Assembly (NCBI GenBank): GCA_963772805.1 | Contig: CAVYYU010000001.1 | Span: forward strand, 1,170 to 65,169 | Reading direction: 5' to 3' | Origin: an uncultured Gammaproteobacteria bacterium | GTDB taxonomy: Bacteria; Pseudomonadota; Gammaproteobacteria; Legionellales; Legionellaceae | Length of the DNA stretch: 64,000 nt | Shown: piece by piece, positions 11,015 through 60,757 of the stretch | Layout: each line of letters opens with the position of its first letter | Numbering within the stretch: position 1 is the first letter of the stretch | The notes under the pieces: generated by a model | Told to the model about the DNA's origin: nothing | Seen by the model: the letters and a program-made list of their open reading frames with translations, nothing else | The model's database searches: none | Translations under genes and position numbers: made by a program

Positions 11015-11212
<198 letters not shown>

Positions 11213-11215
<3 letters not shown>

Positions 11216-11365
11216 ATATAGTCATTTGAATTTAGTGTGATACTCGGCTGCAACCCTCACGTTTTTGCGCTTCCGCTGCGCATGCACTCAAACGTGCACT
11301 TGCGCGGCGGTTCTCAAAACGCGAGCGGTTTCGCTGTCGTCTCACACTAAATTCAAACAACTATC
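11213..11365. repeat. ~150-bp imperfect palindromic (MITE/REP-like) element, copy 2
   Basis: Arms tcatttgaatttagtgtga / tcacactaaattcaaaca. The core at 11266-11315 is homologous to 6822-6871. The element lies between the katG-fragment stop and the apbC stop. Confidence 0.75.
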
Positions 11366-12162: not shown

Positions 12163-12221
12163 CGGGGTTCTCTCTCACGCTACCTATTAGATTGCTTGAA
12201 GCAGGAAGCAATTCACCCTAT

Positions 12222-13451: not shown

Positions 13452-13461
13452 GAGATTTGCC

Positions 13462-14388
13462 ATGCAAGCCATTGTCATTAAAACCGCGATTGCCGCTGTC
13501 ATCACCTTGGTGCTGATGACCTCAAGCCTGTTCATTGTGCCGCAAACCAGCCAGGCGCTAGTGCTGCAGTTTGGTGAAATCAAGCGCGTGGTGAAAACGC
13601 CGGGCCTGCATGTGAAGGTGCCCTTCATTCAGGATCTGCTGATGTTCGATAAGCGCATTTTGGAATTTGAAACCAAGCCCGCCGAATTCATCAGCAAGAA
13701 CCGTGAGACGGGGGTCGATGAACGCGTGGTGATCGATGCGTTCGTGCGTTATAAAATCATCGATCCGGTGCAGTTCTATCAGGCCGTGAAAAACGAAGCG
13801 AACCTCAATAACCGCCTCACCAGTGTGGTGCTTTCGAGCATGCGCCGCGTGCTTGCCGCCCATTCCTTAAGCGATTTGCTCAGCACCTCGCGCGCGACAA
13901 TCATGAAGCAGATTCAGGTTAATGTGAATGCGCAGGTCTCGGCGGCAGCCGGGGTGGTCGCGCGCGAGAATAGTTCTGGCCCAAGCAAAAATGTGCAGGG
14001 CTTTGGTGTCGAGGTGGTGGATGTGCGCATTGTGCGTGCGGAGCTTCCGGCCGATATTTCGCAATCGACCTATGAGCGCATGCGCAAGAACTTCACGAAA
14101 GAGGCGCAACGCTTCCGTGCCGAAGGGGAAGAAAAAGCCACCGAAATTCGTGCGACTGCGGAACGCGAGCGCACGGAACTTTTAGCCGAGGCCCGCAAAA
14201 CTGCGGAAATCACGCGCGGGGAGGGGGACGCGATCGCCACCAAAACCTATGCGGAAGCTTTTGGCCGCGACCCAGCGTTCTTCAAATTCTATCGCAGCAT
14301 GCAGGCCTATCGCAGTACGTTGAGCCGGGACGACACCTCGGTCATCCTTTCGCCAAGCGATGGCTTTTTGGATGAGTTCAGGCAGTAA
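13462..14388 (+). CDS. hflC: HflC
   Basis: N-terminal TM segment plus SPFH domain (LVLQFGEIKRVVKTPGLHVKVPFIQ), typical hflKC pairing. Confidence 0.9.
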   Translation: MQAIVIKTAIAAVITLVLMTSSLFIVPQTSQALVLQFGEIKRVVKTPGLHVKVPFIQDLLMFDKRILEFETKPAEFISKNRETGVDERVVIDAFVRYKIIDPVQFYQAVKNEANLNNRLTSVVLSSMRRVLAAHSLSDLLSTSRATIMKQIQVNVNAQVSAAAGVVARENSSGPSKNVQGFGVEVVDVRIVRAELPADISQSTYERMRKNFTKEAQRFRAEGEEKATEIRATAERERTELLAEARKTAEITRGEGDAIATKTYAEAFGRDPAFFKFYRSMQAYRSTLSRDDTSVILSPSDGFLDEFRQ

Positions 14389-14435
14389 GCGGCGGATGAT
14401 TGCCCGCTCGCACGGGTGAAAAATTTGCATGCGCT

Positions 14436-14621
14436 TTACCTTGATTTATGACGCGAGTGCACCCTATGTAATGGTTGTCCTAATTGCCCTTCATTTAAAG
14501 TCGTTTTGTTTAACAGCACACCAATGACATTGTCGCTCATATCCAAACGTTCAAGTAACTTATCAATCAAATCACTTGCCTGGCATCTTTCAACCAAAAG
14601 AAGCAGCAAATCTTCATTCAT
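14436..14621 (-). CDS. 61-codon ORF translationally coupled (ATGA overlap) to the giant gene; its 3' end is probably truncated or altered at the compositional junction
   Basis: The start ATG (14621-14619) overlaps the TGA stop (14620-14618) of the upstream giant ORF. The last ~10 codons lie in sequence of different composition. Confidence 0.35.
   Translation of the reverse strand: MNEDLLLLLVERCQASDLIDKLLERLDMSDNVIGVLLNKTTLNEGQLGQPLHRVHSRHKSR

Positions 14622-38223: not shown

Positions 38224-38227
<4 letters not shown>
37403..38227 (-). CDS. kdsA: 2-dehydro-3-deoxyphosphooctonate aldolase (KDO8P synthase)
   Basis: KdsA family sequence throughout ([19 protein letters not shown], ...). Confidence 0.9.
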
Positions 38228-39909
<1,682 letters not shown>

Positions 39910-47233: not shown

Positions 47234-48313
47234 ATGAATTTTAATTTGACAAAAGAGAAATTTATAATACAGAATAATCATATTAGATACGAACAGCTGA
47301 CTATTGTGAACGATAAACGAGATGTTTTACCTACGAGTGACATTACTGCACAAGCGGTGGTGATCGGATGCTCGCATAATAACCAAAATTGCAATCATGA
47401 CATTCATCCATCTTCCCAATATTTTTATACTATTGATGTTAGTGAGGCTTTAAAACCAGATTGTATTATGGATATTACAAAAGACAATATTCCAACTTTC
47501 TTGCAAAATAAATTCCAATTAACCATTTTGGAATATTTACCTTTCGATACCTACAATTATAGCCCTTTATCTGAAAAAATCATGGGTATAAATGGGCAAA
47601 GAGGTCTTGATAATTCAAGAGAGTTGACCAGCGAAAATGGTTTTATCATGGTGGTAGGGAATTCCAGGAACTATCGTTTTCGTAATTCGGTAGCGAATTT
47701 AAACTATCTTGAAATTGCGAGTAGTAACGCTGGAAATTATGTTCTACTAATTCCAAATAATCAAAATCGCTCCGCTCCCGAGGTAATGCAAGATATACAA
47801 AATTTACCAGACGCTCTGCAACAATCCATTTCTACAGCAACTACACAAGGATATAAACCCGAAGAACCATTGGAATTTTGTAAACTTAACTATCATATAA
47901 AATCAAGTAATGAAGATTTTATTGATCATCTTAACCACTATATTATGTTGCGTTCTTTCCAAGAAGAGTACAAAACCAGATTTAATATTTTGGGGATCGA
48001 ACTTAATTTTGGTTACTCATCACATCAAAAAATTAGTGCAGCAAATGCTTTAATACACGTTTTACTTGGCAATGCCCCTGAAGAATCTTTGGCGCCGCAC
48101 AAACCATCCTTAACGAACGGTGTATTAGGCCAAATTTTAAATTTTCATTTAAAAGGCAAAAACCTCAGTCAATTAATCAATGAGAGTCAAGTAACAGAAT
48201 CGTCCCTTAATCGAAATACAACAAATGATTTTAAAGAAAGGTTTAAAAATTTAAATTCCGATCTAGAATTAAAGAATGAAATAAACCCCGATCAAACCAG
48301 ACGGCGTCTCTAA
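47234..48313 (+). CDS. Hypothetical 359-aa protein (orphan; effector candidate)
   Basis: Clean ORF. No motif recognised. Confidence 0.6.
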   Translation: MNFNLTKEKFIIQNNHIRYEQLTIVNDKRDVLPTSDITAQAVVIGCSHNNQNCNHDIHPSSQYFYTIDVSEALKPDCIMDITKDNIPTFLQNKFQLTILEYLPFDTYNYSPLSEKIMGINGQRGLDNSRELTSENGFIMVVGNSRNYRFRNSVANLNYLEIASSNAGNYVLLIPNNQNRSAPEVMQDIQNLPDALQQSISTATTQGYKPEEPLEFCKLNYHIKSSNEDFIDHLNHYIMLRSFQEEYKTRFNILGIELNFGYSSHQKISAANALIHVLLGNAPEESLAPHKPSLTNGVLGQILNFHLKGKNLSQLINESQVTESSLNRNTTNDFKERFKNLNSDLELKNEINPDQTRRRL

Positions 48314-48532
48314 ATTTTATTTGGTTAAAATCTCACCTATAATTAACGAAAAGGTTAAATGTAATACGCGACGCTGTGTCCAGTATGTCCGTGGATCAGA
48401 ATTTCAATACTAAATATAAAGCCCTGAGTAAGTGCCTTTCGGAATAAACAGATTTTGCAGCTCATGATTGTAAAAGAGATAAGCATTGCTTGCATGATAC
48501 GCCATACACATAGATCCCCAAACTGCTCACAG

Positions 48533-48559
48533 AGATATCCACAGAAATTGTGGATATCT
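48533..48559. promoter_or_regulatory. Perfect 11-bp inverted repeat made of two facing DnaA-box-like 9-mers
   Basis: agatatccaca-gaaat-tgtggatatct: atatccaca matches 8/9 of TTATCCACA. A third copy, ctatccaca, is at 48664-48672. Confidence 0.4.
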
Positions 48560-48887
48560 AATCTATGCTAAAAATAATAAGTTCTATACAAACCCAAGCA
48601 CAGCAAGGACTATTTAAAATAAGTTAGATAAGTAAATTAAAATACAAGAAATTATTAAATAATCTATCCACAGAAAGGGATGAATTGATGAGTAAATTTT
48701 CAACCCAATGGTAACAAAAAAAGAATAAAAAAACAGCCTTATTTTAAATTATTTTTCTGCTTTTCCTTGAAAACACAATATATTGTGCTTATGACCTCAT
48801 TAGCAGCGCAATGATTTTTAATCCAGCATCTGAGTATAAACGTAGCCGTATTAGCGTAGCGTAATTCATGATGTCCTTTAATTCAGG

Positions 48888-50168
48888 TCAGGGCTGTAAT
48901 TGACACTGCTCTAGAAAATAAATAGCCACTGAATCATGGGAATCCTGAGCAATAACCTCTTTAAAAAGACAGCTGGCTTCTTGAAACCGTTTTTCTTCAT
49001 AATGGTTTAGAGCCTGGGTAAAAAGCAAAAGAGTATTCTTTTTCAATTGTATTTCGCTGACATTGTCATGATTAAAAACTTCATAAACTTTAATCGGTAA
49101 ATTCTTACCTTTCACAGAAGTTAAACCTAAAGAGCGTAAATGATAGTTTTCTATGTATTTTAATTGTTGGTATGTTTGTCCGCTAATTAAGAGTTCAATA
49201 TTAAAGCTTCGGGTTAATGATTCTACTCTGGAAGCAATATTGACCGCATCGCTAATCACACTGCAATCCATGCGCGACTCAAAACCAACCGTACCGACAA
49301 TTAATGAACCGGTATTAATGCCAATACCTACATTAATTGGCAGTAAATTATTACGTGCACGAACCTCATTAAATACATTGAGCGCATCAAGCATACCCAA
49401 TGCTGCAGATACAGCATTATCCGCATCATCAAATAAGGCCATCAGCGCATCACCAATGTATTTATCAATAAAACCACCATTTTTAACAATCACTGGATCC
49501 AAATAACTCATCAAGCTATTTACCAAGTTAAAAATTTCAACCGAAGACAGCTGTTCTGCCAGAGTAGTAAATGATTTAATGTCTAAAAATAAAACCGTCA
49601 TAACTTTTTCAACACAATCACCCAGTTTTATATCTGCTATATTTTTTCGATTAAGCACTTTTAGGAAATTTTGGGGTACAAAGCGTGCTACTGCAGCAGC
49701 GTTTTGCTGAATTTCCACAAGCTTATTCACAAGTTCATCATTTAATGCCCGTACCTTTTTCTCAGCAACCTGCAACGCCTGAAAGTAAGAACTGGTACGA
49801 ACCATATAGCAAACACGATAACCAATTAAATCAGCATTAATAGGCTTTGTCGTAAAATCAGTAGCGCCAGCCATAAATGCTTGATTAATCGATTCATAGT
49901 CTTCCAATCCAGTAACCATCATGATAGGGGTGTATTGATAATCAGGTAACTTGCGTATTGCGCGGCATACTTCAAAGCCATTTAAGCCTGGCATCTCCAC
50001 ATCCAGCAAAATAATATCTGGCCTTTTCGTATTTAATAATGCTAATGCGGTTTCACCATCTTCAGCTTGAATAACTTCAAAACCATATTTGATTAGGGCA
50101 TCACTAGTGAGCAAACGCATTGTGGCGCTGTCATCAACAATCAAAACTAAAAAGCTTTCTTTTTCCAT
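48888..50168 (-). CDS. Response-regulator receiver fused to a class III adenylate cyclase (plus a short TPR-like tail)
   Basis: REC domain (DDSATMR..., DIILLDVEMPGLNG, K in TKP). Cyclase motifs VLFLDIKSFTTL, DKYIGDALMALF (Lys consistent with ATP specificity), GINTGSLIVGTVG and ISDAVNIASRVE. Confidence 0.85.
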   Translation of the reverse strand: MEKESFLVLIVDDSATMRLLTSDALIKYGFEVIQAEDGETALALLNTKRPDIILLDVEMPGLNGFEVCRAIRKLPDYQYTPIMMVTGLEDYESINQAFMAGATDFTTKPINADLIGYRVCYMVRTSSYFQALQVAEKKVRALNDELVNKLVEIQQNAAAVARFVPQNFLKVLNRKNIADIKLGDCVEKVMTVLFLDIKSFTTLAEQLSSVEIFNLVNSLMSYLDPVIVKNGGFIDKYIGDALMALFDDADNAVSAALGMLDALNVFNEVRARNNLLPINVGIGINTGSLIVGTVGFESRMDCSVISDAVNIASRVESLTRSFNIELLISGQTYQQLKYIENYHLRSLGLTSVKGKNLPIKVYEVFNHDNVSEIQLKKNTLLLFTQALNHYEEKRFQEASCLFKEVIAQDSHDSVAIYFLEQCQLQP

Positions 50169-50173
50169 AAACG

Positions 50174-51232
50174 TTACTCGACTTTAGTGGTGCAAATATT
50201 CGTTAAATAATTGGCAATATGTTCCAAATCAATCACCAGATCTACTGCATTCAATGATTGTGCAACAGCCCCCATACCAAAAACAACGGCACTTTGAGGA
50301 TCTTGAATTAACGTATGCCCTTGCGCTTTTTTTAGTTCTAATAAGCCCTCAGCCCCATCATCACTCATACCGGTTAAAAGCATACCTATAGCCTTAGGAC
50401 CTGAAACTTGAGCTACAGACCGCAGCAATATTGTGATCGAAGGACAAAAACCAGAAACAGGATCTCCATCGACTAATTTACAGGTTAATTGATCCTGAAC
50501 ACGCTCTATCAGCAGATCTTTTTGCTCTGGAGCAATGTAGACGGCTCCTTTGTGTAATACATCATGATTCACTACATTTTTCACTTTAAGGCGGATATTT
50601 TTTGCAAGCCATTGTGAAAATCCACAAATAAAACCATTGCTCATATGCTGAACAATCACAATTGGCACCGGAAAATCAGCTGGCAATTGGGACAAAATGG
50701 TTTTCAATGCCATAGGGCCCCCTACTGAAGCGCCAATTGCAATGATTTCATACGCTGGTGTCATTTTTTGGAGCTCGGCCTGTTTGTGTTCTTTTGCATA
50801 AGTGAGTGTCGTTTTTAATGGTTTTTTAGCGACGCAAATTTCTGAAAGACTACGGATGGTATCAATAATGTAATTACTGCGCTCCTTAAATGATGATGAA
50901 AATGCATTAACCGGTTTAGCCAATGCAGTTAATGCCCCTGCTTCAAGAATATGAAAGGTAGCATGAATTGATTCATCATTCACCATAGAGCTAATCACAA
51001 TAATTGGCGTGGGATTTTGTGACATAATAATACGCGTTGCCTCAAGTCCATCCATAATCGGCATTTGAATGTCCATCGTAATCAAATCGGGCTTTAATTT
51101 CGCGGTTAACTCAACTGCTTCTTTGCCATTTTTAGCAACACCAATCACCATCATGTCTTTTTCAGACTCAATAATGTATTGAATTAATGCAACTTCGGTG
51201 GGTGAATCATCAGCAATTAAAATTCTTATCAT
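50174..51232 (-). CDS. cheB: CheB-type protein-glutamate methylesterase (REC + methylesterase)
   Basis: REC N-terminus, GASVGGP, HMSNGF and LTGMSDDGA motifs. Confidence 0.9.
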   Translation of the reverse strand: MIRILIADDSPTEVALIQYIIESEKDMMVIGVAKNGKEAVELTAKLKPDLITMDIQMPIMDGLEATRIIMSQNPTPIIVISSMVNDESIHATFHILEAGALTALAKPVNAFSSSFKERSNYIIDTIRSLSEICVAKKPLKTTLTYAKEHKQAELQKMTPAYEIIAIGASVGGPMALKTILSQLPADFPVPIVIVQHMSNGFICGFSQWLAKNIRLKVKNVVNHDVLHKGAVYIAPEQKDLLIERVQDQLTCKLVDGDPVSGFCPSITILLRSVAQVSGPKAIGMLLTGMSDDGAEGLLELKKAQGHTLIQDPQSAVVFGMGAVAQSLNAVDLVIDLEHIANYLTNICTTKVE

Positions 51233-51260
51233 AGGCAGTAATTCACATGTATTTAAAAAG

Positions 51261-53561
51261 TTAAGATAACAATGCTTTTTTAATTATTTCAGAAGAATTT
51301 AGTACAAAGTTAATTTGATTACTGCCTGTCAAAGTAGCACCAATGACAAAAGGCATATTGGTTAATGGCTCTTGCAACGGCTTAAGCACAACTTCCCTTT
51401 CGCCAATAATTTCATCGACGAGCAAAGCAATACGCTCCCAATTTTTCTTAACGATAACTACAGACAGATACTCTTTTGAATTGCGTGTATTTTCATCAAG
51501 ATACAATATCCTGGCCAAAGAGCTTAACAAAACCGGTTGCTGCTTGACAAGAACAGTAGGGCTTCCTTCCACCTCCACAATATCGCTTTTTTTTAGCAAT
51601 AAAACACTTTCTACAGAGCTGGTAAGAATCACAAATACTTGCTCATTGCATGAAACAATCAAGCCACGTTCGGTTGCCAGGGTAATGGGAACGCGCAAGA
51701 AAAAATGTGTGCCATTGCCTGGCTGGCTGGTTACACTAACTAGCCCTTTCAACTGGGTCAGGTTAGAACGAACAATATCCAAGCCTACACCTCGTCCAGA
51801 AATACCTGTTACCACCTTACGGGTAGAAAAGCCTGGGCGAAAAATAATATCTAAAATGTCCGTAGGGCTCATCATATCAAGCTCAGTTTGCGTGATAATA
51901 TTTTTTTCCAAGGCGCTACGAGCTAAATTATCTGGGTTAATCCCCGCGCCATCATCAGAGATTTCGAAGATAATTTGATGATCTTCCTGATACACCTTAA
52001 GACGAATGTTCCCTTGCAATGATTTACCTGCTGCCTGACGTTGTTCCGCATCTTCGATGCCATGATCAATTGCGTTACGCAAAATATGCACAATAGGATC
52101 TTTTAATCCTTCCAAGATCATCTTATCAATTTTTACATCATTGTTTTTAATATCAAAATTAACTGGTTTTTGTAGTTCATTAGCTAAATCACGCACCAGC
52201 CGTGGCAAATAACGCAACTGGCTGTCTACTGAAATCAAACGTATAGTACGAATTTCATCCTGCAGCGCATTGAATAAAACAGATAACTCATTAACCGGCA
52301 TACGCAATCCTCGCTGTAACCGATGGGTGGCATTGCTGATTTCAGAAAGCTCTGAAAATTGGGTAGAAAATAACGTGTCTAAACGCTCTTCTTCACCATC
52401 AAAAAGACGTCTAAAACTTAATATGTTTTTTTTCCAGGCTTTAATAAAATAATCGATTTTGCAATTTATTTTGTTAAGATCTGCATAATGTTCCTCAATG
52501 GCAATTTTAACGCCCTGGATTTCTTCCATATCGGCTGAAATACGATCCAAATTTTGCAGAGGTACGCGGATGGATTCATACTCATTCACTTTGCCTTTCG
52601 TTACAAAACGGTTAAGTGCCACATCAGGCTCAAGGAGCTGTTCAACGAGCGGTTTTACTTGCGTGGGGGCTTCTTGCTGAGAAAACTCAGTATATTTCCG
52701 CAGCTGCAACAAATGATTTTGTAGATCAAAAGATAAAGGTATTTCCTCACTATAACATTGCATTGCCTCATTCATGTAATCAATCGATTGCAAACAAAGA
52801 TTAATTATTCCGGGAGAAATTCTAATGCTTTTTTGCTCAATTGCCGTAAATAAAGTTTCCAGATGATGTGCGATTTCACCAACGTTAATCGCACCAACTC
52901 CGCGAGCAGAACCTTTAATATTATGCGCTGCGCGAAAAAGCTCTTCTAAGAGCGCTACAAATCGCTGCTCCGATATGCCATCTTTTTCAAGCTGCAACAA
53001 ACCATCAGTAATTTTGATTAGATTTTCCTGAAGTTCTACTTTAAAAGTTGCAATAATTTTTTTTAAAAACTCGCGTTCAGAGGTATTAGAGGACTGCGTA
53101 GCCAACGGAAGAAAAAACCCTTCAGGAACGGATGGTTCTGGTATAACTGCAGCCTCCTCCCCTTTTTCGCTCAAATGTACTTGTTGCTGCAATTGATGTA
53201 GTAATTCACGAATATGAGCAGAACATGGTTTTTTTTCGACGAACTCTTGCATGACCTCACGCATACCCTCCACAGAGAGAAAGACTAAATCAACGCATTC
53301 AGCGGTTACCTCATGCTCTGACACAAATAATTTTTCAATGGACTCAGCCATCTTCGCAAGATCATTAATCCCAACCGAAAGCGCAGCAACTTTAATATTA
53401 CGGCCAGAGCGAGAAATTTCAGCAATAATGGGCTTTAAATCATTATCTGAGGTGCCTGACTTAATTTTTTGTAAATTATCCGTTATCACCGAAAGTAGCG
53501 ATTCCAACTCGGCATTAAAGGTTACAATTAACTGTTTTAGCAAGGGCTCATCTGGAATCAT
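51261..53561 (-). CDS. cheA: CheA-type histidine kinase with two HPt-like domains (the first lacks the His), an HATPase domain and a C-terminal CheW-like domain; no receiver
   Basis: HPt2 is FRAAHNIKGSARGVG (His codon at 52923-52925). HPt1 is RSGRNIKVAALSVG, with Arg in the His position (~53400-53402). N box HILRNAIDHGIE, G1 DDGAGI and G2 GRGVGLDIV are present. Confidence 0.9.
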   Translation of the reverse strand: MIPDEPLLKQLIVTFNAELESLLSVITDNLQKIKSGTSDNDLKPIIAEISRSGRNIKVAALSVGINDLAKMAESIEKLFVSEHEVTAECVDLVFLSVEGMREVMQEFVEKKPCSAHIRELLHQLQQQVHLSEKGEEAAVIPEPSVPEGFFLPLATQSSNTSEREFLKKIIATFKVELQENLIKITDGLLQLEKDGISEQRFVALLEELFRAAHNIKGSARGVGAINVGEIAHHLETLFTAIEQKSIRISPGIINLCLQSIDYMNEAMQCYSEEIPLSFDLQNHLLQLRKYTEFSQQEAPTQVKPLVEQLLEPDVALNRFVTKGKVNEYESIRVPLQNLDRISADMEEIQGVKIAIEEHYADLNKINCKIDYFIKAWKKNILSFRRLFDGEEERLDTLFSTQFSELSEISNATHRLQRGLRMPVNELSVLFNALQDEIRTIRLISVDSQLRYLPRLVRDLANELQKPVNFDIKNNDVKIDKMILEGLKDPIVHILRNAIDHGIEDAEQRQAAGKSLQGNIRLKVYQEDHQIIFEISDDGAGINPDNLARSALEKNIITQTELDMMSPTDILDIIFRPGFSTRKVVTGISGRGVGLDIVRSNLTQLKGLVSVTSQPGNGTHFFLRVPITLATERGLIVSCNEQVFVILTSSVESVLLLKKSDIVEVEGSPTVLVKQQPVLLSSLARILYLDENTRNSKEYLSVVIVKKNWERIALLVDEIIGEREVVLKPLQEPLTNMPFVIGATLTGSNQINFVLNSSEIIKKALLS

Positions 53562-53569
53562 AGCGCCCC

Positions 53570-55432
53570 CTAAACTTTATAGATGCTTACATCATCTTTA
53601 AGATGCTTCGCAATTTCATCCAATTTATGAATGAAATCCATCATTTCCTTAATACCGCCGGAGAACGTCGATGTAGTTCGATTAATTTCATTCATACTTT
53701 CAACGATTTGTTCGATACCGACCGCTTCTTGACGTATGGCCACTTCGATATGTTGGCTTGAAATCGAAGCCTCATTAATCATTTTACTTAAGGTGTGGAT
53801 CACCTCCCCCGCTTTTTCAATTAATTGTGTGCCAGACCCCAAGGTTTTTGCCCCCTCTTCAGTCACGGTAACTGCTTTTTCAGTAGTACGACGAATGTCT
53901 TCGAGAATTTTTTGCACTTGCACAGTAGATTGCTCTGATTGTTCTGCTAAATTTCTTACTTCGGTAGCTACTGCAGCAAAGCCTTTTCCGGCCTCACCTG
54001 CTTTTGATGCCTCAATAGCTGCATTCAAAGCCAGCATTTTTGACTGTTGCGCAAGGCTATTCACCACAGCCGTGATTTCCCCGATTTGTTGCGTGTGAAT
54101 ACTTAAATCAAGAATTGTTTGCGCGATAAGTTTCATTTTTTCTTCTGAAGCTTTAATGCCATGAATGCTTTGTACTACAGATTCCGTACCGAGCTTTCCT
54201 TGTTCATAAGTATTTTTAGCAACATCACGTAAGGCTTGAGCTTTATTCATGGTTTGTTTTGAACTCTTATCAATTTCCTCCAAAGAAGCACTAATTTCAT
54301 TAATTGCTGAAGCCTGTGAATTAATACTCTCGGTCTGCTCACTTGCAGAGGTGATCACTTTATCTACCATAGTAACAATTTCATTACTCACTTGAGTAAT
54401 TTTTTGAGTACTCGATGCCAAAGCATCGGTCATCAAATTTAAATCATTACCTAAATCTTGCAATACATCTTCTTTATCAAGTACGAGTCGCTCCCTCAGA
54501 TCGCCAGCAGCTACTTTACTGCTATGCAGACTGAACTTATTCGATGAATTCACCAATTGTTCCAGAAGTCGCCGTGATTGCTCTTCATTTTTACGCATTT
54601 TCTCTTCATTTTCTTTAATTGCTTGTTGCATGCTTTTAAGTGATAACAGCATCTTGCCTAATCTATCTAAAGTATGAATTTGAATATCGATATCACGCTC
54701 ACCTGCAGCAATACGTTCAGCAATTTCAATCACATTATCTATTGGACCTGAAAGAGTACGTTGTGTTATTAGAGGGACAATAATTGTTAACACAATTGCG
54801 AGAATTAACAGCGCATATGCCGATTGTTTGAGTGTTAATAAAGTTTCATCAATATGGCGCGTGTTTTTGGTAATTTCTTGCCTTATATCACTGTATAATC
54901 CACCAACTCGTTGTCCACGTTCATTAGAATAAGCACCATCAATAATATCAATCAAGTGGCTGCTAAGGGGTCTTACCTTCTCTGAGGCATGCTGCAAGCC
55001 CTCTATTGTGCTTGCATTTCTTAGCATATGCATCACCGCCAATTGCCCCTGATATACCGGCTCATAAAGTTGTGTTAATTGTCGCCAATTCTCCAGGATC
55101 TCTTGATTACCTAACTTAGTTAATGCCTCATGCCATATTTCTTTGGTCTTATTAATTTCATCCCAAACACGTATAAATTCAAGCTCATCATTAGGATCTC
55201 CGGTCATTATCCAATGCGCAACGATATCTCTAGTCTGATAAATCTGGGTATCTAATACCGCAGATAAATTAACCTCATAGATTTGTTTACTAGAAAAAAT
55301 TATGGAGTTAATTTTGGGTAATAAAAGCATAATTAACAGCACAAGAGGCAGGCTTAATGATAGAAACCCTATAAATAAACGGGTTCGGAGCGTAATAATA
55401 AAATGTGGCTTCCTAACTGTTTCCATAAACAT
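53570..55432 (-). CDS. Methyl-accepting chemotaxis protein (2 TM segments, periplasmic sensor, HAMP, signalling domain)
   Basis: Highly conserved hairpin tip [36 protein letters not shown]. Confidence 0.9.
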
Positions 55433-56006
55433 CTCCTATCTTGTATACGCTTTTCTTAATTTCTTGACTTAATCCTAAGACAAGAGCATCAATATTCAGA
55501 ATGGCAGTAACGGCTTGATCTAAGCCAAGAATGTATTCAGTATGAGCAACATTCACCGAAGTTAAAGGAACACCTAACCGACTCGGTTGATAAATACCAC
55601 TGCCCTCAACACAATTAATCAATAGACCCAAAGTAACATCATTTGTATTAATAACAATAATAATTTTACTGCATGATTCCAAACGAGCTGGATGAAAAAA
55701 CTTCATCAGATCAATTACGGTAATCAAAGCACCGCGCCAATTGATTACCCCGGTAATAAAATCAGGAACAAAAGGCGGTTTGGCTATAGAAACATAATGT
55801 AAAACTTCATGAATATGTTGATAAGCAATCCCATAATGCTCATTTGGACCAAGTCTAAATCGTACATAAGCAACACCATTTGGCTCACTTACACTCTGTT
55901 CATACTGAGCAAGCTGCTCCGCACGTGCTTGGAGTACACGTAGTGCCGCATCACCCTTGGGCATTAATTCTGAAGCATGTTTTTGTACTTTAGTCATTGC
56001 TGCCAA
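55413..56006 (-). CDS. cheW: CheW-like coupling protein
   Basis: CheW domain ([19 protein letters not shown]). A 20-nt overlap with the mcp start. Confidence 0.8.
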
Positions 56007-56040
56007 AATTCCTTTCGCGGTTATTTAGAGTCTATTGCCC

Positions 56041-56155
56041 TTTCTACTCTCTTGGCCAAATGAGTCAATTTTCTGTACCCCGATGCACACGTACTTGATG
56101 TATGCTCCGCTTCGCTGCGCAAAAATCAACTCACGGTGACTCAATCTAACGAAAT
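56041..56155. repeat. ~115-bp hairpin-forming intergenic repeat, copy A (overlaps the last 5 codons and the stop of cheR)
   Basis: It aligns by eye with 60521-60620: tttctact.tcttgg...attttctgt.c.ccgatgc.cac.t.cttgatgtatg...gactcaatcta.cgaaat. Confidence 0.7.
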
Positions 56156-57001
56156 ATCAACAGAGCCTAAAGAAAAATAGATTGCTCCATTATGGTGAAA
56201 AACAAGATTTGTTTCTGCCGTAACAATGGGATCAGAGGCACCCAGTACAAGATAAGCGCTCTCGGCCATAGTTGCACTTAATTTTTTCATGATTTTTACA
56301 ACAAACTCACTATCAAAATAAATTAGCACATTGCGGCATAAGATTAAATCAATCTCATTGATTCCATTAAGAATAGATGGATAACTATTATCACTCAAAT
56401 TAAGGTATTTAAAGTTCACCAAATTACGAATCTTGGGGGAAAGAACATAAGTACGCTCCTCTTTAGAGAAATAGCGTTGCAAATAGAGTTCTGAAATAGA
56501 GCGCATTGACCACTGCCGGTAAACACCTGCCTGTGCCTTTGCCAAAGCGGTCGTGTTAATATCAGTGCCTAATAGTTGCAAATTCCAACCATCAATGTTC
56601 GGTATTAATTCAGACAACAGCATCGCAATAGTATATATTTCCTCGCCTGTTGAACAACCTGCACTCCAAATTTTTAAAGTAAAATTATTTTTCTTTTGCT
56701 TTATTAACTGCGGCAATATTATTTTTTCCAATAAATGCATTTGATTTTTATCGCGAAAAAAATAGCTTTCCCCGACAGTAATTGCCGCAACTAAATCAGC
56801 CAGTAAAGAGGAACTATTGGAGCAACGCGTTAATTGATGCAAATATTCTTGAGGTGAATAATTGAATTTATGACACGCATCGATAATTGTTTTCACCAGC
56901 GCCCGTGTCTGATTAATATGAACAACAAGCCCAAATCTTAGACGAATTAATTCAATAAATTCAGATTCCAAAATTTTTATACTATTCAATAAATTATTCA
57001 T
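56141..57001 (-). CDS. cheR: CheR-type MCP methyltransferase
   Basis: CheR N-terminal helical domain plus a SAM-MTase domain (IWSAGCSTGEEIYTIAMLL, CRNVLIYF). Confidence 0.9.
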   Translation of the reverse strand: MNNLLNSIKILESEFIELIRLRFGLVVHINQTRALVKTIIDACHKFNYSPQEYLHQLTRCSNSSSLLADLVAAITVGESYFFRDKNQMHLLEKIILPQLIKQKKNNFTLKIWSAGCSTGEEIYTIAMLLSELIPNIDGWNLQLLGTDINTTALAKAQAGVYRQWSMRSISELYLQRYFSKEERTYVLSPKIRNLVNFKYLNLSDNSYPSILNGINEIDLILCRNVLIYFDSEFVVKIMKKLSATMAESAYLVLGASDPIVTAETNLVFHHNGAIYFSLGSVDISLD

Positions 57002-57470
57002 GATCTGCAGAATAGTGATGAGCTTCTTGTGTTAGTTTCAGTGCAAACACCCAAAGAATATTCAGCAACAGTGAAACGCCTGTTGCCAGAGTAACTGCTC
57101 CTAAAAATGGCGAATGCCCTTCTGTAAGCTCTTCATGTATTTCAATGTTTTCTTCACAAATCGCACCAAGTCCAATCACTTTATCTACAATCAAAGCAAC
57201 ATGGTGTATTCCATCAGAGCAAAGCAGAATGGGTATATTTAAAGAATATATTTGCTCACGTGTCAAACCAATACAAACTGCTAAATCAAAAACAGGAACA
57301 CAGGTATTTTTAAGATTCATCAACCCGACAAAATAGACCGGACTACCTGGAATGGTTTCAAGCATAGGTAAAGGAAGTATTTTTTCTACATAACGCAAAT
57401 CCAAACAGCAGTGTACGTCTTGCAAGAGAAAATGAAGAACATTTATGCAATTACCGTCCTCTTCAACCAC
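56994..57470 (-). CDS. Second CheW-like protein
   Basis: CheW-domain-like (VGLMNLKNTCVPVFDL). An 8-nt overlap with cheR. Confidence 0.7.
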   Translation of the reverse strand: MVEEDGNCINVLHFLLQDVHCCLDLRYVEKILPLPMLETIPGSPVYFVGLMNLKNTCVPVFDLAVCIGLTREQIYSLNIPILLCSDGIHHVALIVDKVIGLGAICEENIEIHEELTEGHSPFLGAVTLATGVSLLLNILWVFALKLTQEAHHYSADHE

Positions 57471-57753
57471 TTAGCCCCCGTCCTAAGAAGATTTCTTTTT
57501 TATTCTTATATTTATAGACCTAATCTACACAGCACACAAGGTAAAAAATGAACAATCTAGCTATAAGCCGGAGGGAGTGTTTCTTTTTCGAAGTTATTCT
57601 TGCACCCGAAGCCCGTAAATTGGGCGCTTTCCCTGAGGTATTGCCAATGGTTAATATCTGTTATTCCCCTTAGCTCAAAAGTAGATTGTGCAAAGTCCAA
57701 CAACGGAGCGAAACGACCGCCATAATGTTGGGCGACTCTGCAATCCGCTTATA

Positions 57754-58095
57754 TTATCCTTTTTTAACAAACTGTGACTTTAATTTCATTGCACCAATTC
57801 CCTCAATTTTACAATCAATGTCATGATCACCATCAACCAAGCGAATATTCTTAACTTTCGTACCCACTTTAACTACCAGTGAGGAACCTTTAACCTTGAG
57901 ATCCTTTATAACCGTAACTGTATCGCCGTCTTGTAGAATCTGACCATTTGCATCTTTGATGACTCGGGCTTCATCGCGCGATTCTTCGGCATCATCCTTT
58001 GCCCATTCGTGGGTGCATTCTGGACAAATAAGCAGGCTGCCATCTTCGTACGTGTATTCTGAATTACATTTAGGGCATGGGGGTAATGTATGCAT
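57754..58095 (-). CDS. phnA: PhnA/YjdM-family zinc-ribbon protein
   Basis: [21 protein letters not shown], followed by the conserved C-terminal beta domain; 113 aa. Confidence 0.85.
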
Positions 58096-58146
58096 GTTTT
58101 TTCCTAATAATAAACCAAGACCGTATTGTACAACCTAAGAATGCAA

Positions 58147-58566
58147 TTAGCATCCCATAACAGTAATTTTCAGATGCCGTTGATGCGGTTGGTAGCGATG
58201 TTCATAAAGATAGATCCCTTGCCATGTACCTAAAGCTAATTTTTTATTCTGTAGCGGAATGGTAAGACTTGTCTGCGTTAAAATGGTACGTATATGCGCA
58301 GGCATATCGTCCTCCCCTTCAATGATATGCTTAAAAAGTGGATCACCATCAGGGATTAGGCGTGCCAGAAAATGTTCTAAGTCTTTGCGAACCTGGGCAT
58401 CATAGTTTTCGCACAACATTAATGAGGCGCTGGTATGTTGAAGAAAAAAATGACATAGCCCCTGTTGAATCGAGGTATTTGCTAAAACGGCGGCAATTTT
58501 TGCTGAGATATCCGTTGTTCCTCTTCCTGCAGTCTCAACAGTCATGGAAAATTGTTCTAGGTTCAT
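58147..58566 (-). CDS. yjbQ: YjbQ/UPF0047-family protein
   Basis: HTSASLMLCENYD...DDMPAHIR...LGTWQGIYLYEHR signature; 139 aa. Confidence 0.85.
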   Translation of the reverse strand: MNLEQFSMTVETAGRGTTDISAKIAAVLANTSIQQGLCHFFLQHTSASLMLCENYDAQVRKDLEHFLARLIPDGDPLFKHIIEGEDDMPAHIRTILTQTSLTIPLQNKKLALGTWQGIYLYEHRYQPHQRHLKITVMGC

Positions 58567-60397: not shown

Positions 60398-60520
60398 ACC
60401 ATATCTAATCTCTAAACATCAATTTGTTGGATTAAATTCTTCCCAACCCTGTGCCAGATTCAATACTAAACATTACTTAGCTCTGCCTATTTCTTCATCT
60501 ATTCTAGGGGCTGTTGATAT

Positions 60521-60620
60521 TTCTACTATCTTGGTTCAAATAAATTGATTTTCTGTGCTCCGATGCTCACCTGCTTGATGTATGTCAAAAATAAATTTAT
60601 TTGGACTCAATCTAGCGAAA
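60521..60620. repeat. ~100-bp hairpin-forming intergenic repeat, copy B
   Basis: See copy A. It lacks the 16-nt ctccgcttcgctgcgc segment, and its arms (caaataaattgatttt / aaaaataaatttatttg) differ from copy A but still pair. Confidence 0.7.
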
Positions 60621-60757
60621 TGGCAACCCCCCTAATTTAATCAGGAAAATTGGACTATAATTTAATAAACTGATTCCTATAGAGACAATTGGAGATTAGC
60701 TCTACTCCAAGCAATAATTAATACAATAAGTCGCGAGTCAATTTGGGGAATTAGAAA

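What the first reader, a model, noticed from the sequence alone, without database searches (positions are those of the whole stretch)
48888..57470. Chemosensory (Che-like) cluster with no CheY, whose terminal gene is a receiver-adenylate cyclase fusion
- **Gene order** (minus strand): cheW-like, cheR, a 134-nt gap holding a repeat element, cheW, mcp, cheA, cheB, REC-class III cyclase. The last five genes are separated by 20-nt overlaps to 28-nt gaps, which suggests one operon.
- **Output.** There is no stand-alone CheY, CheZ or flagellar gene in the window. The only non-CheB receiver is fused to a cyclase with intact metal-binding Asp residues and the Lys that normally specifies ATP.
- **Analogy.** By analogy with Wsp (CheA-type kinase to the REC-GGDEF protein WspR), this looks like a chemoreceptor array wired directly to cAMP synthesis rather than to motility.
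- **CheA.** It has two HPt-like domains. The first has Arg where the phospho-accepting His should be (RSGRNIKVAA versus RAAHNIKGSA), and the protein lacks the receiver present in WspE.
- **Prior knowledge.** As far as I recall, a Che pathway with a direct REC-cyclase output has not been characterised biochemically. I also recall, unverified, that L. longbeachae was reported to carry che genes without flagella.
Basis: partly seen in the sequence, partly recalled or inferred. Interest (0 to 1): 0.65.

Follow-up and report, generated by a model that had tools for sequence, protein, structure and literature searches.

The report
Legionella chemosensory operon ending in adenylate cyclase
A Legionella 'chemotaxis' operon has no CheY and ends in a receiver-adenylate cyclase fusion, so it probably converts a sensed signal into cAMP rather than steering motility, which would explain why flagella-less Legionella keep these genes.

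Summary

- **Cluster.** Seven minus-strand genes (cheW, cheR, cheW, mcp, cheA, cheB, REC-cyclase) lie at 48888-57470. Gaps and overlaps are as described. A dispersed palindromic repeat fills the 134-nt cheR-cheW gap.
- **Source.** The window is metagenomic DNA from a Legionella close to L. drancourtii.
- **Conservation.** The same seven-gene order, cyclase last, recurs in all 17 other Legionella/Fluoribacter loci examined. These include non-flagellated species.
- **Selection.** All genes are under purifying selection.
- **Cyclase.** It is a complete class IIIb adenylate cyclase. Its closest solved relative is P. aeruginosa CyaB. It sits behind a canonical receiver and a roughly 50-residue helix, and the predicted fold matches full-length WspR.
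- **CheA.** Published MiST-based data class orthologous CheAs as ACF. The closest non-orthologous relatives are WspE-like CheA-REC proteins. Their clusters carry REC-GGDEF-EAL or REC-cyclase regulators.

My verdict is a Wsp-like (ACF) chemosensory pathway whose output has been swapped to cAMP synthesis. Phosphotransfer, enzyme activity and co-transcription are inferred and were not shown. REC-cyclase regulators in ACF-type clusters were catalogued once, in a 2012 survey, but never studied. The Legionella papers I read list the che genes and this cyclase separately and never link them. I rate it a new variant of a known kind, of moderate interest.

The parts
57471..57753 (-). 283-nt intergenic region upstream of the first gene. 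It is the presumed promoter region of the cluster (inferred only).
   Evidence: Sequence read. The consensus promoter scan found nothing above the chance expectation, and I have no transcript data.
56994..57470 (-). cheW-like coupling protein (158 aa, GTG start). It overlaps cheR by 8 nt.
   Evidence: Pfam CheW, E = 3.7e-18. Conserved as the first gene in the 15 genome loci. dN/dS = 0.14 against L. drancourtii.
56141..57001 (-). cheR methyltransferase (286 aa). It has no TPR extension.
   Evidence: Pfam CheR, E = 6.7e-53, and no other family hit. dN/dS = 0.07.
56007..56140 (-). 134-nt gap holding a palindromic dispersed repeat (REP/MITE-like). It is a lineage-specific insertion between cheR and cheW.
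   Evidence: Folds to -31.4 kcal/mol. Related copies lie at window ~60500-60640, in the L. drancourtii gap, and in L011 (two copies) and L003. In the 12 loci from other named Legionella/Fluoribacter species the same gap is 13-31 nt by tblastn match ends, or a 4-nt overlap by called genes in L022. Contigs from other runs span it.
55413..56006 (-). cheW coupling protein (197 aa from a TTG start; an ATG lies three codons downstream). It overlaps mcp by 20 nt.
   Evidence: Pfam CheW, E = 1.7e-19. Sequence read.
53570..55432 (-). Transmembrane chemoreceptor (620 aa). It has two hydrophobic segments (about residues 17-48 and 197-228), a periplasmic domain of about 150 aa of unknown family, a HAMP domain, a 40-heptad signalling domain, and no C-terminal pentapeptide.
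   Evidence: Pfam MCPsignal, E = 2e-32, plus HAMP. It aligns without net gaps to the CtpM profile (312 vs 312 positions). It is 28 residues longer than the Tar/Tsr profiles over the same span. Hydropathy. dN/dS = 0.04.
51261..53561 (-). cheA kinase (766 aa). Order of domains: degenerate HPt1, HPt2, dimerisation, HATPase, CheW-like. No P2 domain was detected and there is no receiver.
   Evidence: Pfam Hpt (residues 169-260), HATPase_c and CheW. PDB CheA matches over residues 423-759. N, G1 and G2 boxes are present. Orthologs are classed cheaACF in PMC10782961 Table S2.
53187..53543 (-). HPt1, the degenerate phosphotransfer domain (residues ~7-125). Arg54 (codon 53400-53402) occupies the position of the phospho-accepting His.
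   Evidence: 30% identity to HPt2, E = 1e-17. DNA-level repeat 52906-52939 / 53383-53416. The 'RNIKV[SA]A' motif is conserved in most Legionella-clade homologs (RTIKVAA in L010, RNIKVLA in L006), down to 40% identity. His is retained in the more distant P0177. dN/dS = 0.32.
52692..53069 (-). HPt2, the canonical phosphotransfer domain (residues ~165-290). His213 (codon 52923-52925) is the predicted phosphorylation site.
   Evidence: Pfam Hpt, E = 1.6e-15. Aligns to E. coli CheA P1. 'AHNIKGS' is invariant in 16 orthologs.
50174..51232 (-). cheB methylesterase with receiver (352 aa). Asp54 is the phospho-acceptor, and the Ser-His-Asp triad motifs are present.
   Evidence: Pfam CheB_methylest, E = 1.4e-54, plus Response_reg. 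NCBIfam CheB subfamily scores 323.9 bits against a cutoff of 293. Motifs GASVGG, VQHM and MSDDG.
48888..50168 (-). Receiver-adenylate cyclase fusion (426 aa), the predicted output response regulator. It starts 5 nt after the cheB stop.
   Evidence: Pfam Response_reg, E = 2.6e-27, plus Guanylate_cyc, E = 2.4e-23. It is the last gene in all 17 other Legionella/Fluoribacter loci examined. AF2 model has mean pLDDT 87.
49809..50150 (-). Receiver domain of the fusion (residues 7-120). Key residues are Asp12, Asp13, Asp56 (phospho-acceptor, codon 50001-50003), Thr86 and Lys108.
   Evidence: All five residues are invariant in 16 orthologs. The best named matches are PleD-type receivers.
49617..49832 (-). 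Linker of the fusion. A continuous helix spans residues 112-160, followed by a short helix at 166-171 (motif RFVPQxFL) leading into the catalytic domain.
   Evidence: AF2 secondary structure. R162, F163, V164 and P165 are invariant in 28 homologs. This region aligns to the helical handle of the photoactivated cyclases OaPAC and bPAC.
49077..49616 (-). Class IIIb cyclase catalytic domain (residues 185-364). Key residues are Asp196, Asp240, Lys236, Ser303, Asn310 and Arg314.
   Evidence: Best PDB sequence hit is P. aeruginosa CyaB 3r5g, E = 2.7e-27. The fold match to it has TM 0.79 and rmsd 2.5. The residues are invariant in orthologs.
48897..49061 (-). C-terminal three-helix, TPR-like tail of the fusion (residues 370-424).
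   Evidence: AF2 helices at 370-391, 395-408 and 413-424. Orthologs carry precomputed TPR-type Pfam hits (PF14559, PF12895), marked weak in L. longbeachae. The longer Beggiatoa-type homologs carry TPR_2.

Best explanation
This is an ACF-class (Wsp-like) chemosensory pathway of a Legionella close to L. drancourtii. Its dedicated output regulator is a receiver-class IIIb adenylate cyclase.

**Proposed mechanism (inferred)**
1. A transmembrane 40-heptad chemoreceptor with an uncharacterised periplasmic domain of about 150 aa senses an unknown signal.
2. Through two CheW proteins it sets the autophosphorylation rate of CheA on His213 of HPt2.
3. The phosphoryl group passes to Asp56 of the cyclase fusion (output) and to Asp54 of CheB (adaptation, together with CheR).
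4. Receiver phosphorylation changes the packing or register of the long helix that joins the receiver to the catalytic domain. That switches the activity of the cyclase homodimer and so the cAMP level.
5. cAMP is then read by cNMP-binding proteins encoded elsewhere in the genome.

**Shown versus inferred**
- Shown: domain content, catalytic and phospho-acceptor residues, conserved synteny, purifying selection, class of the orthologs, and the predicted fold.
- Inferred: co-transcription, phosphotransfer, ATP as substrate, and the sign of regulation. I guess activation, by analogy with WspR and cyanobacterial CyaC.
- The conserved degenerate HPt1 (His replaced by Arg) probably has a docking or regulatory role. 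That role is unknown.
For: **Gene content**
- Gene content and spacing are confirmed.
- CheB and the cyclase fusion hold the only receiver domains in the 64-kb window.

**Conservation**
- The seven-gene order, with the cyclase 5-22 nt after cheB, is kept in 15 genome loci and in L. longbeachae.
- It is also kept, with a 14-nt cheB-cyclase overlap, in a Legionella MAG whose CheA is only 40% identical and whose upstream flank (amino-acid permease, YjbQ/UPF0047) matches the window's.
- It is present in non-flagellated L. gratiana and L. longbeachae as well as in species the review treats as flagellated.
- dN/dS is 0.04-0.32 for every gene and domain.
- Cluster GC is 38.2% against a 39.0% Legionella background.

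**The fusion protein**
- The receiver DD-D-T-K residues and the cyclase D-K-D-S-N-R residues are invariant in 16 orthologs.
- The best solved relative of the catalytic domain is the cAMP-forming CyaB of P. aeruginosa.
- The AF2 model (pLDDT 87) runs receiver, 49-residue helix, cyclase. It matches full-length WspR (3bre, 3i5a), PleD and OaPAC/bPAC.

**Class and relatives**
- Orthologous CheAs are classed cheaACF (PMC10782961 Table S2).
- About 93% of multi-Hpt CheAs belong to the ACF or Tfp classes.
- The closest non-orthologous CheAs (43-49% identity) are Hpt-HATPase-CheW-REC hybrids.
- Their W-R-W-MCP-A-B clusters carry REC-cyclase (L017), REC-GGDEF-EAL (L018, L027) or REC-HD (L020) regulators.
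- Che-linked REC-cyclases group together in 65 of 100 NJ bootstraps.
Against: - **No transcript data.** No RNA run holds the region. A hairpin-forming repeat interrupts the cluster between cheR and cheW, and consensus scans for promoters and terminators were uninformative.
- **No biochemical evidence** for phosphotransfer or cyclase activity.
- **Partner ambiguity.** The nearest REC-cyclase homologs outside the Legionella-type clusters are orphans or sit beside classical histidine kinases. The receiver family is therefore not intrinsically Che-specific. In L016 and L017 an extra REC-HATPase gene accompanies the cyclase.
- **Other regulators.** L. longbeachae has several species-specific response regulators of unknown type. 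A stand-alone CheY-like partner elsewhere cannot be excluded.
- **Motif deviation.** The usually conserved Gly of the (I/L)GDxVN motif (motif consensus from my own knowledge) is Ser306 here. It is nearly invariant (at least 90%) in the 28 homologs aligned, so it is probably tolerated, but this is untested.
- **Weak tree support.** Bootstrap support for a single recruitment of the cyclase is only 65%.
Confidence: 0.7

Rival explanations
1. The main output is a CheY-like single-domain regulator encoded elsewhere, for example one controlling type IV pili. On this view the receiver-cyclase is only a secondary branch or a phosphate sink.
For: - L. longbeachae has type IV pili, and several lineage-specific response regulators of unknown type.
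- Reviews have suggested pilus-based functions for the Legionella che genes.
- CheA lost the C-terminal receiver that its relatives carry. In other systems that receiver commonly acts as a sink.
Against: - No CheY is found in the window. Called genes in the L021 and L022 flanks show none either.
- The ACF class is characterised by multidomain regulators.
- A mere sink would not need invariant catalytic residues in the cyclase domain.
- The gene order matches Wsp, not the Tfp-type pilGHIJK-chpA order (own knowledge).
Confidence: 0.12
2. The cyclase fusion is the regulator of an unrelated classical histidine kinase, and its position after cheB is only conserved hitch-hiking.
For: - Homologs at 36-40% identity in Sorangium and other bacteria sit beside HisKA/HATPase kinases or stand alone.
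- A REC-HATPase gene travels with the cyclase in L016 and L017.
Against: - The spacing after cheB is 5-22 nt on the same strand (a 14-nt overlap in L021) in all 17 other Legionella/Fluoribacter loci examined. This holds across lineages whose CheAs are only 40% identical.
- There is no kinase gene next to the cluster in the window.
- In the most distant cases (L016, L017) the cyclase still stays with the che cluster despite rearrangement.
Confidence: 0.06
3. The catalytic domain makes another nucleotide (cGMP or another cyclic NMP), or it is inactive and serves as a nucleotide-binding or scaffold domain.
For: - Specificity of class III cyclases cannot be read with certainty from two residues.
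- The Gly-to-Ser change in the (I/L)GDxVN motif.
- The guanylyl cyclase Cya2 is among the structural matches.
Against: - Lys236 plus Ser303 is the ATP-type pair of class IIIb, as in CyaB, where Lys and Thr align to them.
- Guanylyl cyclases normally have Glu at the Lys position (own knowledge of the family).
- All six catalytic residues are invariant in 16 orthologs, and five of them in all 28 homologs aligned, including distant ones.
Confidence: 0.06
4. It is an ordinary flagellar chemotaxis operon, as annotated in the 2010 genome paper.
For: - The 2010 paper called the genes a chemotaxis system and called llo3303 'CheY' in the main text.
- Some che-positive Legionella species are flagellated.
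Against: - llo3303 is CheB, even in that paper's own supplementary table.
- There is no CheY in the cluster.
- Orthologous CheAs are ACF class, not an F class.
- The operon is fully conserved in non-flagellated species.
Confidence: 0.02

Closest known systems
Wsp system of Pseudomonas (WspA-F plus WspR), the ACF-class prototype
   Same: - Same parts list: one transmembrane MCP, two CheW, CheR, CheA, CheB, and one receiver-stalk-nucleotide cyclase regulator as the last gene.
- Nearly the same order. Wsp is MCP-W-R-W-A-B-RR (own knowledge); here it is W-R-W-MCP-A-B-RR.
- Orthologous CheAs are classed ACF.
- The predicted fold of the regulator matches full-length WspR, 3bre and 3i5a.
   Different: - The output domain is a class III adenylate cyclase, not GGDEF, so the messenger would be cAMP rather than c-di-GMP.
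- CheA lacks WspE's C-terminal receiver and instead has an extra degenerate HPt at the N-terminus.
- CheR has no TPR extension.
- The MCP gene sits in the middle of the operon.
Pil-Chp system controlling the adenylate cyclase CyaB in P. aeruginosa
   Same: - A chemosensory system whose output includes cAMP synthesis by a class IIIb cyclase.
- CyaB's catalytic domain is the closest solved relative of this one (E = 2.7e-27, 31-32% identity, TM 0.79).
   Different: - Chp is Tfp class, with the CheY-like regulators PilG and PilH and a multi-Hpt ChpA-REC.
- CyaB has no receiver. It is controlled indirectly through PilG, FimL and FimV (titles and abstracts listed, plus own knowledge).
- Here the receiver is fused to the cyclase, so the coupling would be direct.
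Cyanobacterial CyaC (Spirulina/Anabaena), a receiver-containing class III cyclase
   Same: - A class III cyclase regulated through a fused receiver domain. From my own knowledge (Kasahara and Ohmori 1999), phosphotransfer to the receiver activates it.
- Its catalytic domain is a close structural match (1wc0, 1wc1; TM 0.80-0.84).
   Different: - CyaC carries its own histidine kinase module and two receivers (own knowledge).
- It is not encoded in, or fed by, a chemosensory cluster.
REC-CHD regulator in the CheR-TPR cluster of deltaproteobacterium NaphS2 (PMC3447774, Table S2)
   Same: The only published record I found of a receiver-mononucleotidyl cyclase regulator inside an ACF-type chemosensory gene cluster.
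   Different: - It is a single table entry with no analysis or experiment.
- It comes from a different phylum, and its cluster has a CheR-TPR, which the Legionella cluster lacks.
Related clusters, several of them Legionella-like MAGs or metagenome contigs, with CheA-REC (L017, L018, L027; P0184, P0196, P0199)
   Same: - Same W-R-W-MCP-A-B backbone, with CheA 43-49% identical over HPt2 to P5.
- L017 also ends in a REC-cyclase.
   Different: - Their CheAs keep the C-terminal receiver and have a single HPt.
- L018 and L027 use REC-GGDEF-EAL as the regulator and carry CheR-TPR and two MCPs.
- L017 adds a REC-HATPase gene.

Membership tests
ACF class of chemosensory systems (Wuichet and Zhulin classification) | CheA assigned to the ACF class by class-specific profiles (MiST) | tested here: met
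   I did not run the profiles on this sequence. [quoted passage not shown] The same proteins are P0134 and P0157, and loci L003, L005 and L015.
ACF class of chemosensory systems | Multidomain response regulator (receiver fused to an output domain) encoded in the cluster | tested here: met
   REC + Guanylate_cyc protein at 48888-50168. PMC3447774 describes multidomain regulators as frequent in this class and almost absent from the other 18 pathway types.
ACF class of chemosensory systems | No CheY, CheZ, CheC/D/X or CheV, and no flagellar genes, with the cluster | tested here: met
   Only two receivers in the 64-kb window. No such Pfam family appears among the 36 ORFs scanned. The rest of the genome could not be searched.
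ACF class of chemosensory systems | Output is a cellular function other than motility | not testable with these tools
   This needs genetics or biochemistry. Indirect support is that the operon is conserved in non-flagellated species.
Wsp system (strict membership) | Regulator is REC-GGDEF (WspR) | tested here: not met
   The output domain is PF00211 Guanylate_cyc, with no GGDEF hit.
Wsp system (strict membership) | CheA-receiver hybrid kinase (WspE) | tested here: not met
   No Response_reg hit in CheA. Relatives with the receiver align only to residues ~165-766.
Wsp system (strict membership) | CheR with a C-terminal TPR domain (WspC) | tested here: not met
   CheR is 286 aa with only the PF01739 hit. 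Relatives in L018, L020 and L027 do have CheR-TPR.
Class III (subclass b) adenylate cyclase | Cyclase homology domain fold | tested here: met
   Pfam PF00211, E = 2.4e-23. CyaB 3r5g, E = 2.7e-27. AF2 model with Foldseek gives TM 0.79-0.84 to CyaB and CyaC.
Class III (subclass b) adenylate cyclase | Two metal-binding Asp; substrate-defining Lys plus Ser/Thr (the IIIb marker); transition-state Asn and Arg | tested here: met
   D196, D240, K236, S303, N310 and R314 align to the CyaB residues. All six are invariant in 16 orthologs, and five (all but S303) in all 28 homologs. The residue roles come from established knowledge of the family.
Class III (subclass b) adenylate cyclase | Forms cAMP from ATP | not testable with these tools
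   An enzyme assay is needed.
Two-component receiver domain (phosphorylatable) | Acidic pocket Asp-Asp, phospho-acceptor Asp, conserved Thr/Ser and Lys | tested here: met
   D12, D13, D56, T86 and K108 are present and invariant in 16 orthologs. Pfam Response_reg, E = 2.6e-27.
Tfp class (Pil-Chp type) | CheY-like PilG/PilH genes in the cluster and a ChpA-type CheA with many Hpt domains and a receiver | tested here: not met
   No single-domain receiver in the window. CheA has two Hpt domains and no receiver. Orthologs are classed ACF, not Tfp.
Flagellar (F-class) chemotaxis system | Stand-alone CheY as the output; CheA of an F class | tested here: not met
   No CheY. Orthologs are classed ACF. 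The cluster is retained in species without flagellar genes.

The most novel reading that the evidence does not exclude
The most novel reading my evidence does not exclude has four parts.

- **Direct wiring.** This would be the first chemoreceptor array wired directly to cAMP: CheA phosphorylates a receiver fused to the cyclase. A methylation-adapting array would then set a cAMP level that governs life-cycle or host-interaction traits in Legionella species of the longbeachae/anisa/drancourtii clade, flagellated or not.
- **A new role for HPt1.** The conserved pseudo-HPt (His replaced by Arg, motif 'RNIKV[SA]A') could be a docking or gating domain. It would have replaced the receiver that related CheAs carry, and would partition phosphoryl flow between CheB and the cyclase.
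- **Array tethering.** The TPR-like tail could tether the cyclase to the array.
- **Amplification.** The neighbouring GAF-GAF-PAS cyclase (61123-63396) could amplify the signal.
Probability: 0.25. Interest if true: 0.75.

Novelty: new variant of a known kind. Interest (0 to 1): 0.55.

Why it matters
- **An open question in Legionella biology.** Since 2010 the Legionella literature has called it a paradox that L. longbeachae and its relatives keep a full 'chemotaxis' operon without flagella, while L. pneumophila has flagella but no che genes. A 2017 review still calls for experiments on the operon's role. Reading it as an ACF pathway whose last gene makes cAMP gives a concrete, testable answer.
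- **A link to cAMP signalling.** It ties the operon to the unusually rich cAMP equipment of these species. The 2010 genome paper reports eight class III cyclases and 13 cNMP-binding proteins in L. longbeachae.
- **A natural example of output swapping.** For chemosensory signalling in general, the same W-R-W-MCP-A-B backbone is joined to REC-GGDEF-EAL, REC-HD or REC-cyclase regulators in related lineages.
- **An evolutionary series for CheA.** The relatives run from CheA-REC, to two intact HPt domains, to a conserved degenerate HPt. This could show what the CheA receiver and extra HPt domains do.
- **Limits.** The surprise for a chemotaxis specialist is moderate. ACF outputs are known to be diverse, and one REC-cyclase case was tabulated in 2012.

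Tried and rejected
- **RNA evidence.** No RNA run holds the region. The supplements of the 2010 transcriptome paper list the genes but give no expression values for them.
- **Promoter and terminator scans.** Counts were at or below the shuffled expectation, so they were uninformative.
- **Wsp reference clusters from plasmids.** A tblastn of CheA against plasmids found only 25-30% identical hits with poor annotation. It was no use for classing the system.
- **First tree attempt.** The Biopython bootstrap timed out. I redid it with a lighter script. Support for a single origin of Che-linked cyclases is only 65%.
- **Is the 134-nt element repeated in the window?** An exact or near-exact search found no second copy. 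A short-word blastn and an alignment were needed to find the diverged copies.
- **Recent horizontal transfer, rejected.** Cluster GC equals the Legionella background. A 40%-divergent Legionella has the cluster with the same upstream flank.
- **Assembly artefact, rejected.** An independent 12-kb contig is colinear over the whole region.
- **Not done.** I ran no structure prediction for CheA. The HPt1-HPt2 homology is already significant at the sequence level.
- I left the third large protein search and the representative-library search unused, because they return no genomic context.

Full report
**1. What is in the sequence**

Seven minus-strand ORFs occupy 48888-57470. Pfam and NCBIfam identify them as follows:

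| Gene | Coordinates | Size |
|---|---|---|
| CheW-like | 56994-57470 | 158 aa |
| CheR | 56141-57001 | 286 aa |
| CheW | 55413-56006 | 197 aa |
| MCP | 53570-55432 | 620 aa |
| CheA | 51261-53561 | 766 aa |
| CheB | 50174-51232 | 352 aa |
| Response_reg + Guanylate_cyc | 48888-50168 | 426 aa |

- Spacing in gene order is an 8-nt overlap, a 134-nt gap, a 20-nt overlap, then gaps of 8, 28 and 5 nt.
- A receiver HMM built from the CheB and cyclase receivers finds no third receiver among all ORFs of at least 60 aa in the window.
- Pfam scans of 36 of the 61 listed ORFs of at least 110 aa show no flagellar, CheZ or CheY gene.
- An independent metagenome run holds a 12,047-nt contig that is colinear with 48528-58200. 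It differs by 60 substitutions and no indels. The arrangement is therefore not an assembly artefact.

**2. Organism and conservation**

- The closest named relative of the cyclase fusion is the L. drancourtii protein, at 93-94% identity. Orthologs at 70-75% identity occur in L. longbeachae, anisa, bozemanae, dumoffii, parisiensis, cherrii, gratiana, wadsworthii, cincinnatiensis, steigerwaltii and lytica.
- A scan of one genome per species returned 15 Legionella/Fluoribacter loci. All 15 have the same seven genes in the same order and strand, with the cyclase 7-21 nt after cheB.
- L. longbeachae has the same arrangement (L022).
- So does a Legionella MAG whose CheA is only 40% identical. There cheB and the cyclase overlap by 14 nt, and the cluster sits next to the same permease and YjbQ/UPF0047 genes as in the window (L021).
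- Against L. drancourtii, dN/dS is 0.04-0.21 for all genes and domains and 0.32 for HPt1.
- Cluster GC (38.2%) equals the Legionella part of the window (39.0%).
- The cluster is therefore old, inherited vertically within this clade, and maintained by selection as a unit.
- According to a 2017 review, L. longbeachae, L. gratiana, L. cincinnatiensis and L. sainthelensi lack flagellar genes. The same review says both flagellated and non-flagellated Legionella carry the operon.
- Retention of the operon is thus independent of flagella.

**3. The output protein**

*Receiver*
- It has Asp12, Asp13, the phospho-acceptor Asp56, Thr86 and Lys108.

*Catalytic domain*
- It has the two metal-binding Asp residues (196, 240) and the substrate-defining Lys236.
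- It has Ser303 at the second specificity position. This aligns with the Thr of CyaB and is the class IIIb marker.
- It has the transition-state residues Asn310 and Arg314.
- All of these are invariant in 16 orthologs. Most are invariant in 28 homologs that reach down to 38% identity.

*Relatives and fold*
- The best solved relative by sequence is the catalytic domain of P. aeruginosa CyaB (3r5g, E = 2.7e-27).
- An AlphaFold2 model (mean pLDDT 87) has these elements:
  - a receiver at residues 7-120;
  - its last helix continuing as one helix over residues 112-160;
  - a short helix at 166-171 carrying the invariant RFVP motif;
  - the cyclase domain at 185-364;
  - three C-terminal TPR-like helices at 370-424.
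- Foldseek matches the catalytic domain to CyaB, CyaC and Cya2 (TM 0.75-0.84). It matches the whole chain to the sensor-helix-cyclase proteins OaPAC and bPAC.
- It also matches full-length WspR (3bre, 3i5a) and PleD.
- The protein therefore has the WspR architecture with a class III cyclase in place of GGDEF.

*One deviation*
- The Gly of the common (I/L)GDxVN motif is Ser306. It is nearly invariant (at least 90%) in the 28 homologs aligned.

**4. The kinase**

- CheA has an HPt domain at residues 169-260 with His213 in an invariant 'AHNIKGS' motif. It also has HATPase and CheW-like domains, and aligns with solved CheA P3-P5 structures.
- No P2 domain and no receiver were detected.
- Residues ~7-125 are a second HPt, 30% identical to the first (E = 1e-17). 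The duplication is still visible at the DNA level (repeat 52906-52939 / 53383-53416).
- In this HPt1 the His position is Arg54.
- The Arg sits in a motif 'RNIKV[SA]A'. It is kept, with two single-residue variants, in every Legionella-clade homolog, including those only 40-43% identical.
- A more distant relative without a receiver (P0177) still has His in both HPt domains.
- This is a conserved, degenerate domain and not decay in progress. Its function is unknown.

**5. Which kind of chemosensory system**

[quoted passage not shown] The species are L. anisa, bozemanae, cincinnatiensis, gormanii, gratiana and parisiensis.
- The same paper reports that about 93% of multi-Hpt CheAs are ACF or Tfp class, and that some such Hpt domains lack the His.
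- The MCP has a 40-heptad signalling domain. It matches the CtpM profile position for position and is 28 residues longer than the Tar/Tsr profiles.
- The nearest non-orthologous CheAs (43-49% identity over residues ~165-766) are Hpt-HATPase-CheW-REC hybrids, the WspE architecture.
- Their genomic contexts share the W-R-W-MCP-A-B backbone but differ in the regulator:

| Locus | Regulator and other features |
|---|---|
| L017 | REC-cyclase as last gene, plus a REC-HATPase gene |
| L016 | REC-cyclase divergently upstream, with REC-HATPase and a cNMP-binding patatin gene |
| L018, L027 | REC-GGDEF-EAL as first gene, with CheR-TPR and two MCPs |
| L020 | REC-HD and further genes |

- REC-cyclase homologs at 36-40% identity in Beggiatoa-like bacteria, Sorangium and others are not in che clusters.
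- In an NJ tree the Che-linked cyclases group together in 65 of 100 bootstraps. This is suggestive of a single recruitment, but not strong.
- The gene order here (W-R-W-MCP-A-B-RR) differs from Wsp (MCP-W-R-W-A-B-RR, own knowledge) only in the position of the MCP gene.

**6. Mechanism**

The best-supported reading is an ACF pathway that follows these steps:
1. The receptor controls CheA.
2. CheA~P (His213) donates to Asp56 of the cyclase fusion and to Asp54 of CheB.
3. CheR and CheB adapt the receptor.
4. Receiver phosphorylation acts through the long helix to switch the cyclase dimer and so the cAMP level.

- Only the parts list, the residues, the synteny, the selection, the class of the orthologs and the fold are shown.
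- Transcription as one unit, phosphotransfer, substrate and the sign of regulation are inferred.
- I put this reading at 0.7. Four rivals are set out and scored in the Rival explanations section of this report. They are: a CheY elsewhere, with the cyclase as a side branch or sink; an unrelated kinase partner; a different product or a dead enzyme; and ordinary flagellar chemotaxis.

**7. Literature and novelty**

- The 2010 L. longbeachae genome paper described llo3298-llo3303 as a chemotaxis system without flagella. It called llo3303 'CheY' in the text and cheB in its own Table S, and listed Llo3304 among eight class III cyclases in a different section. It did not link the two.
- The 2017 flagellar-regulon review says additional experiments are needed on the operon's role, and mentions no adenylate cyclase.
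- Full-text searches for Legionella with chemosensory and cyclase terms found nothing further.
- A 2012 survey of CheR-TPR clusters lists 'mononucleotidyl cyclase' among receiver-fused outputs. That rests on one case, deltaproteobacterium NaphS2.
- P. aeruginosa Pil-Chp controls the cyclase CyaB, but indirectly and through a Tfp-class system (plus own knowledge).
- I therefore file this as a new variant of a known kind: an ACF system with a directly fused cAMP output. It is uncharacterised experimentally and unrecognised in the Legionella literature I could search.

**8. The 134-nt gap**

- The element folds into a long hairpin (-31.4 kcal/mol).
- It has diverged copies at window ~60500-60640, in the same gap of L. 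drancourtii, and in L. steigerwaltii and L. anisa loci.
- In the 12 loci from other named Legionella/Fluoribacter species the cheR-cheW gap is 13-31 nt by tblastn match ends, or a 4-nt overlap by called genes in L022.
- It is therefore a lineage-specific insertion of a dispersed repeat.
- Whether it attenuates transcription between cheR and cheW is unknown.

**9. Other observations**

- **Chimeric left end.**
  - The first 14.5 kb of the window is foreign to the rest. It has 56% GC and holds an alphaproteobacterial two-piece tmRNA.
  - In three other metagenome runs the Legionella sequence continues into different DNA left of 14475.
  - The contig is probably chimeric there. This does not touch the che region.
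- **pyrG.** It carries an in-frame TGA at 39202-39204 where three other runs read CGA.
- **Second cyclase.** A GAF-GAF-PAS cyclase lies 3.6 kb upstream of the cluster.
- **L. drancourtii draft.** It has a frameshift in cheA at the HPt1/HPt2 junction, in a poly-A run.

Noticed in passing
window 1-14474: This block has 56% GC against 39% for the rest of the window. It holds an alphaproteobacterial two-piece tmRNA (5338-5799, Rfam RF01849, 190 bits), ThyX, a haem peroxidase (Pfam PF00141) and two Band_7 genes. In three other metagenome runs the Legionella sequence continues into different DNA left of 14475. The contig is most likely chimeric at that point.
   Followed up: yes
window 39202-39204 (pyrG, minus strand; ORFs 39202-39861 and 38224-39189): CTP synthase is split by an in-frame TGA ('MAD*AKIALF'). 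All three other runs that hold this stretch read CGA (Arg) there. It is either a sequence error or a strain-specific nonsense change in an essential gene.
   Followed up: yes
window 61123-63396 (+): A second class III cyclase (757 aa, GAF-GAF-PAS-cyclase) lies 3.6 kb upstream of the che cluster. The architecture is that of cyanobacterial CyaB1, which from my own knowledge is activated by cAMP. It could interact with the che-linked cAMP output.
   Followed up: no
window 14618-24976 (-): A giant ORF of 3452 aa starts about 140 nt to the right of the chimeric junction at 14475. Its only Pfam hit is DUF3638 (residues 1910-2114). It may be an effector-like protein.
   Followed up: no
window 56007-56140 and ~60500-60640; L001 7427-7555; L011 2100-2345; L003 5640-5740: A family of palindromic dispersed repeats about 100 nt long is found in intergenic regions of several Legionella species. 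The core reads ...TGATTTT.GAGCACCGAAGCGGAGCATACATCAAGTA.GTGAGCATCGGAGCACAGAAAATCA... One copy is inserted between cheR and cheW in the drancourtii lineage only.
   Followed up: partly
L001 ~10495 (L. drancourtii LLAP12 draft genome): cheA changes reading frame exactly at the HPt1/HPt2 junction, in a poly-A run. It is either a draft sequencing error or a natural split into an HPt1-only ORF and a CheA that begins at HPt2.
   Followed up: partly
L016 425-5164: In a distant relative of the cluster, the REC-cyclase is divergently transcribed from the che genes. It is flanked by a REC-HATPase gene and a cNMP-binding patatin-like phospholipase gene, which is a candidate local cAMP effector.
   Followed up: no
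window 29215-30042 (-) and 47234-48313 (+): The first is a putative Dot/Icm substrate (PF16848). The second is a 359-aa ORF with no Pfam hit, convergent with the cyclase gene. Both are consistent with Legionella effector-rich DNA.
   Followed up: no
PMC2824747, main text versus Tables S: The 2010 genome paper calls llo3303 'CheY' in the main text and in Table S6. Its own table of specific genes annotates it as cheB, which is what the ortholog here is.
   Followed up: yes
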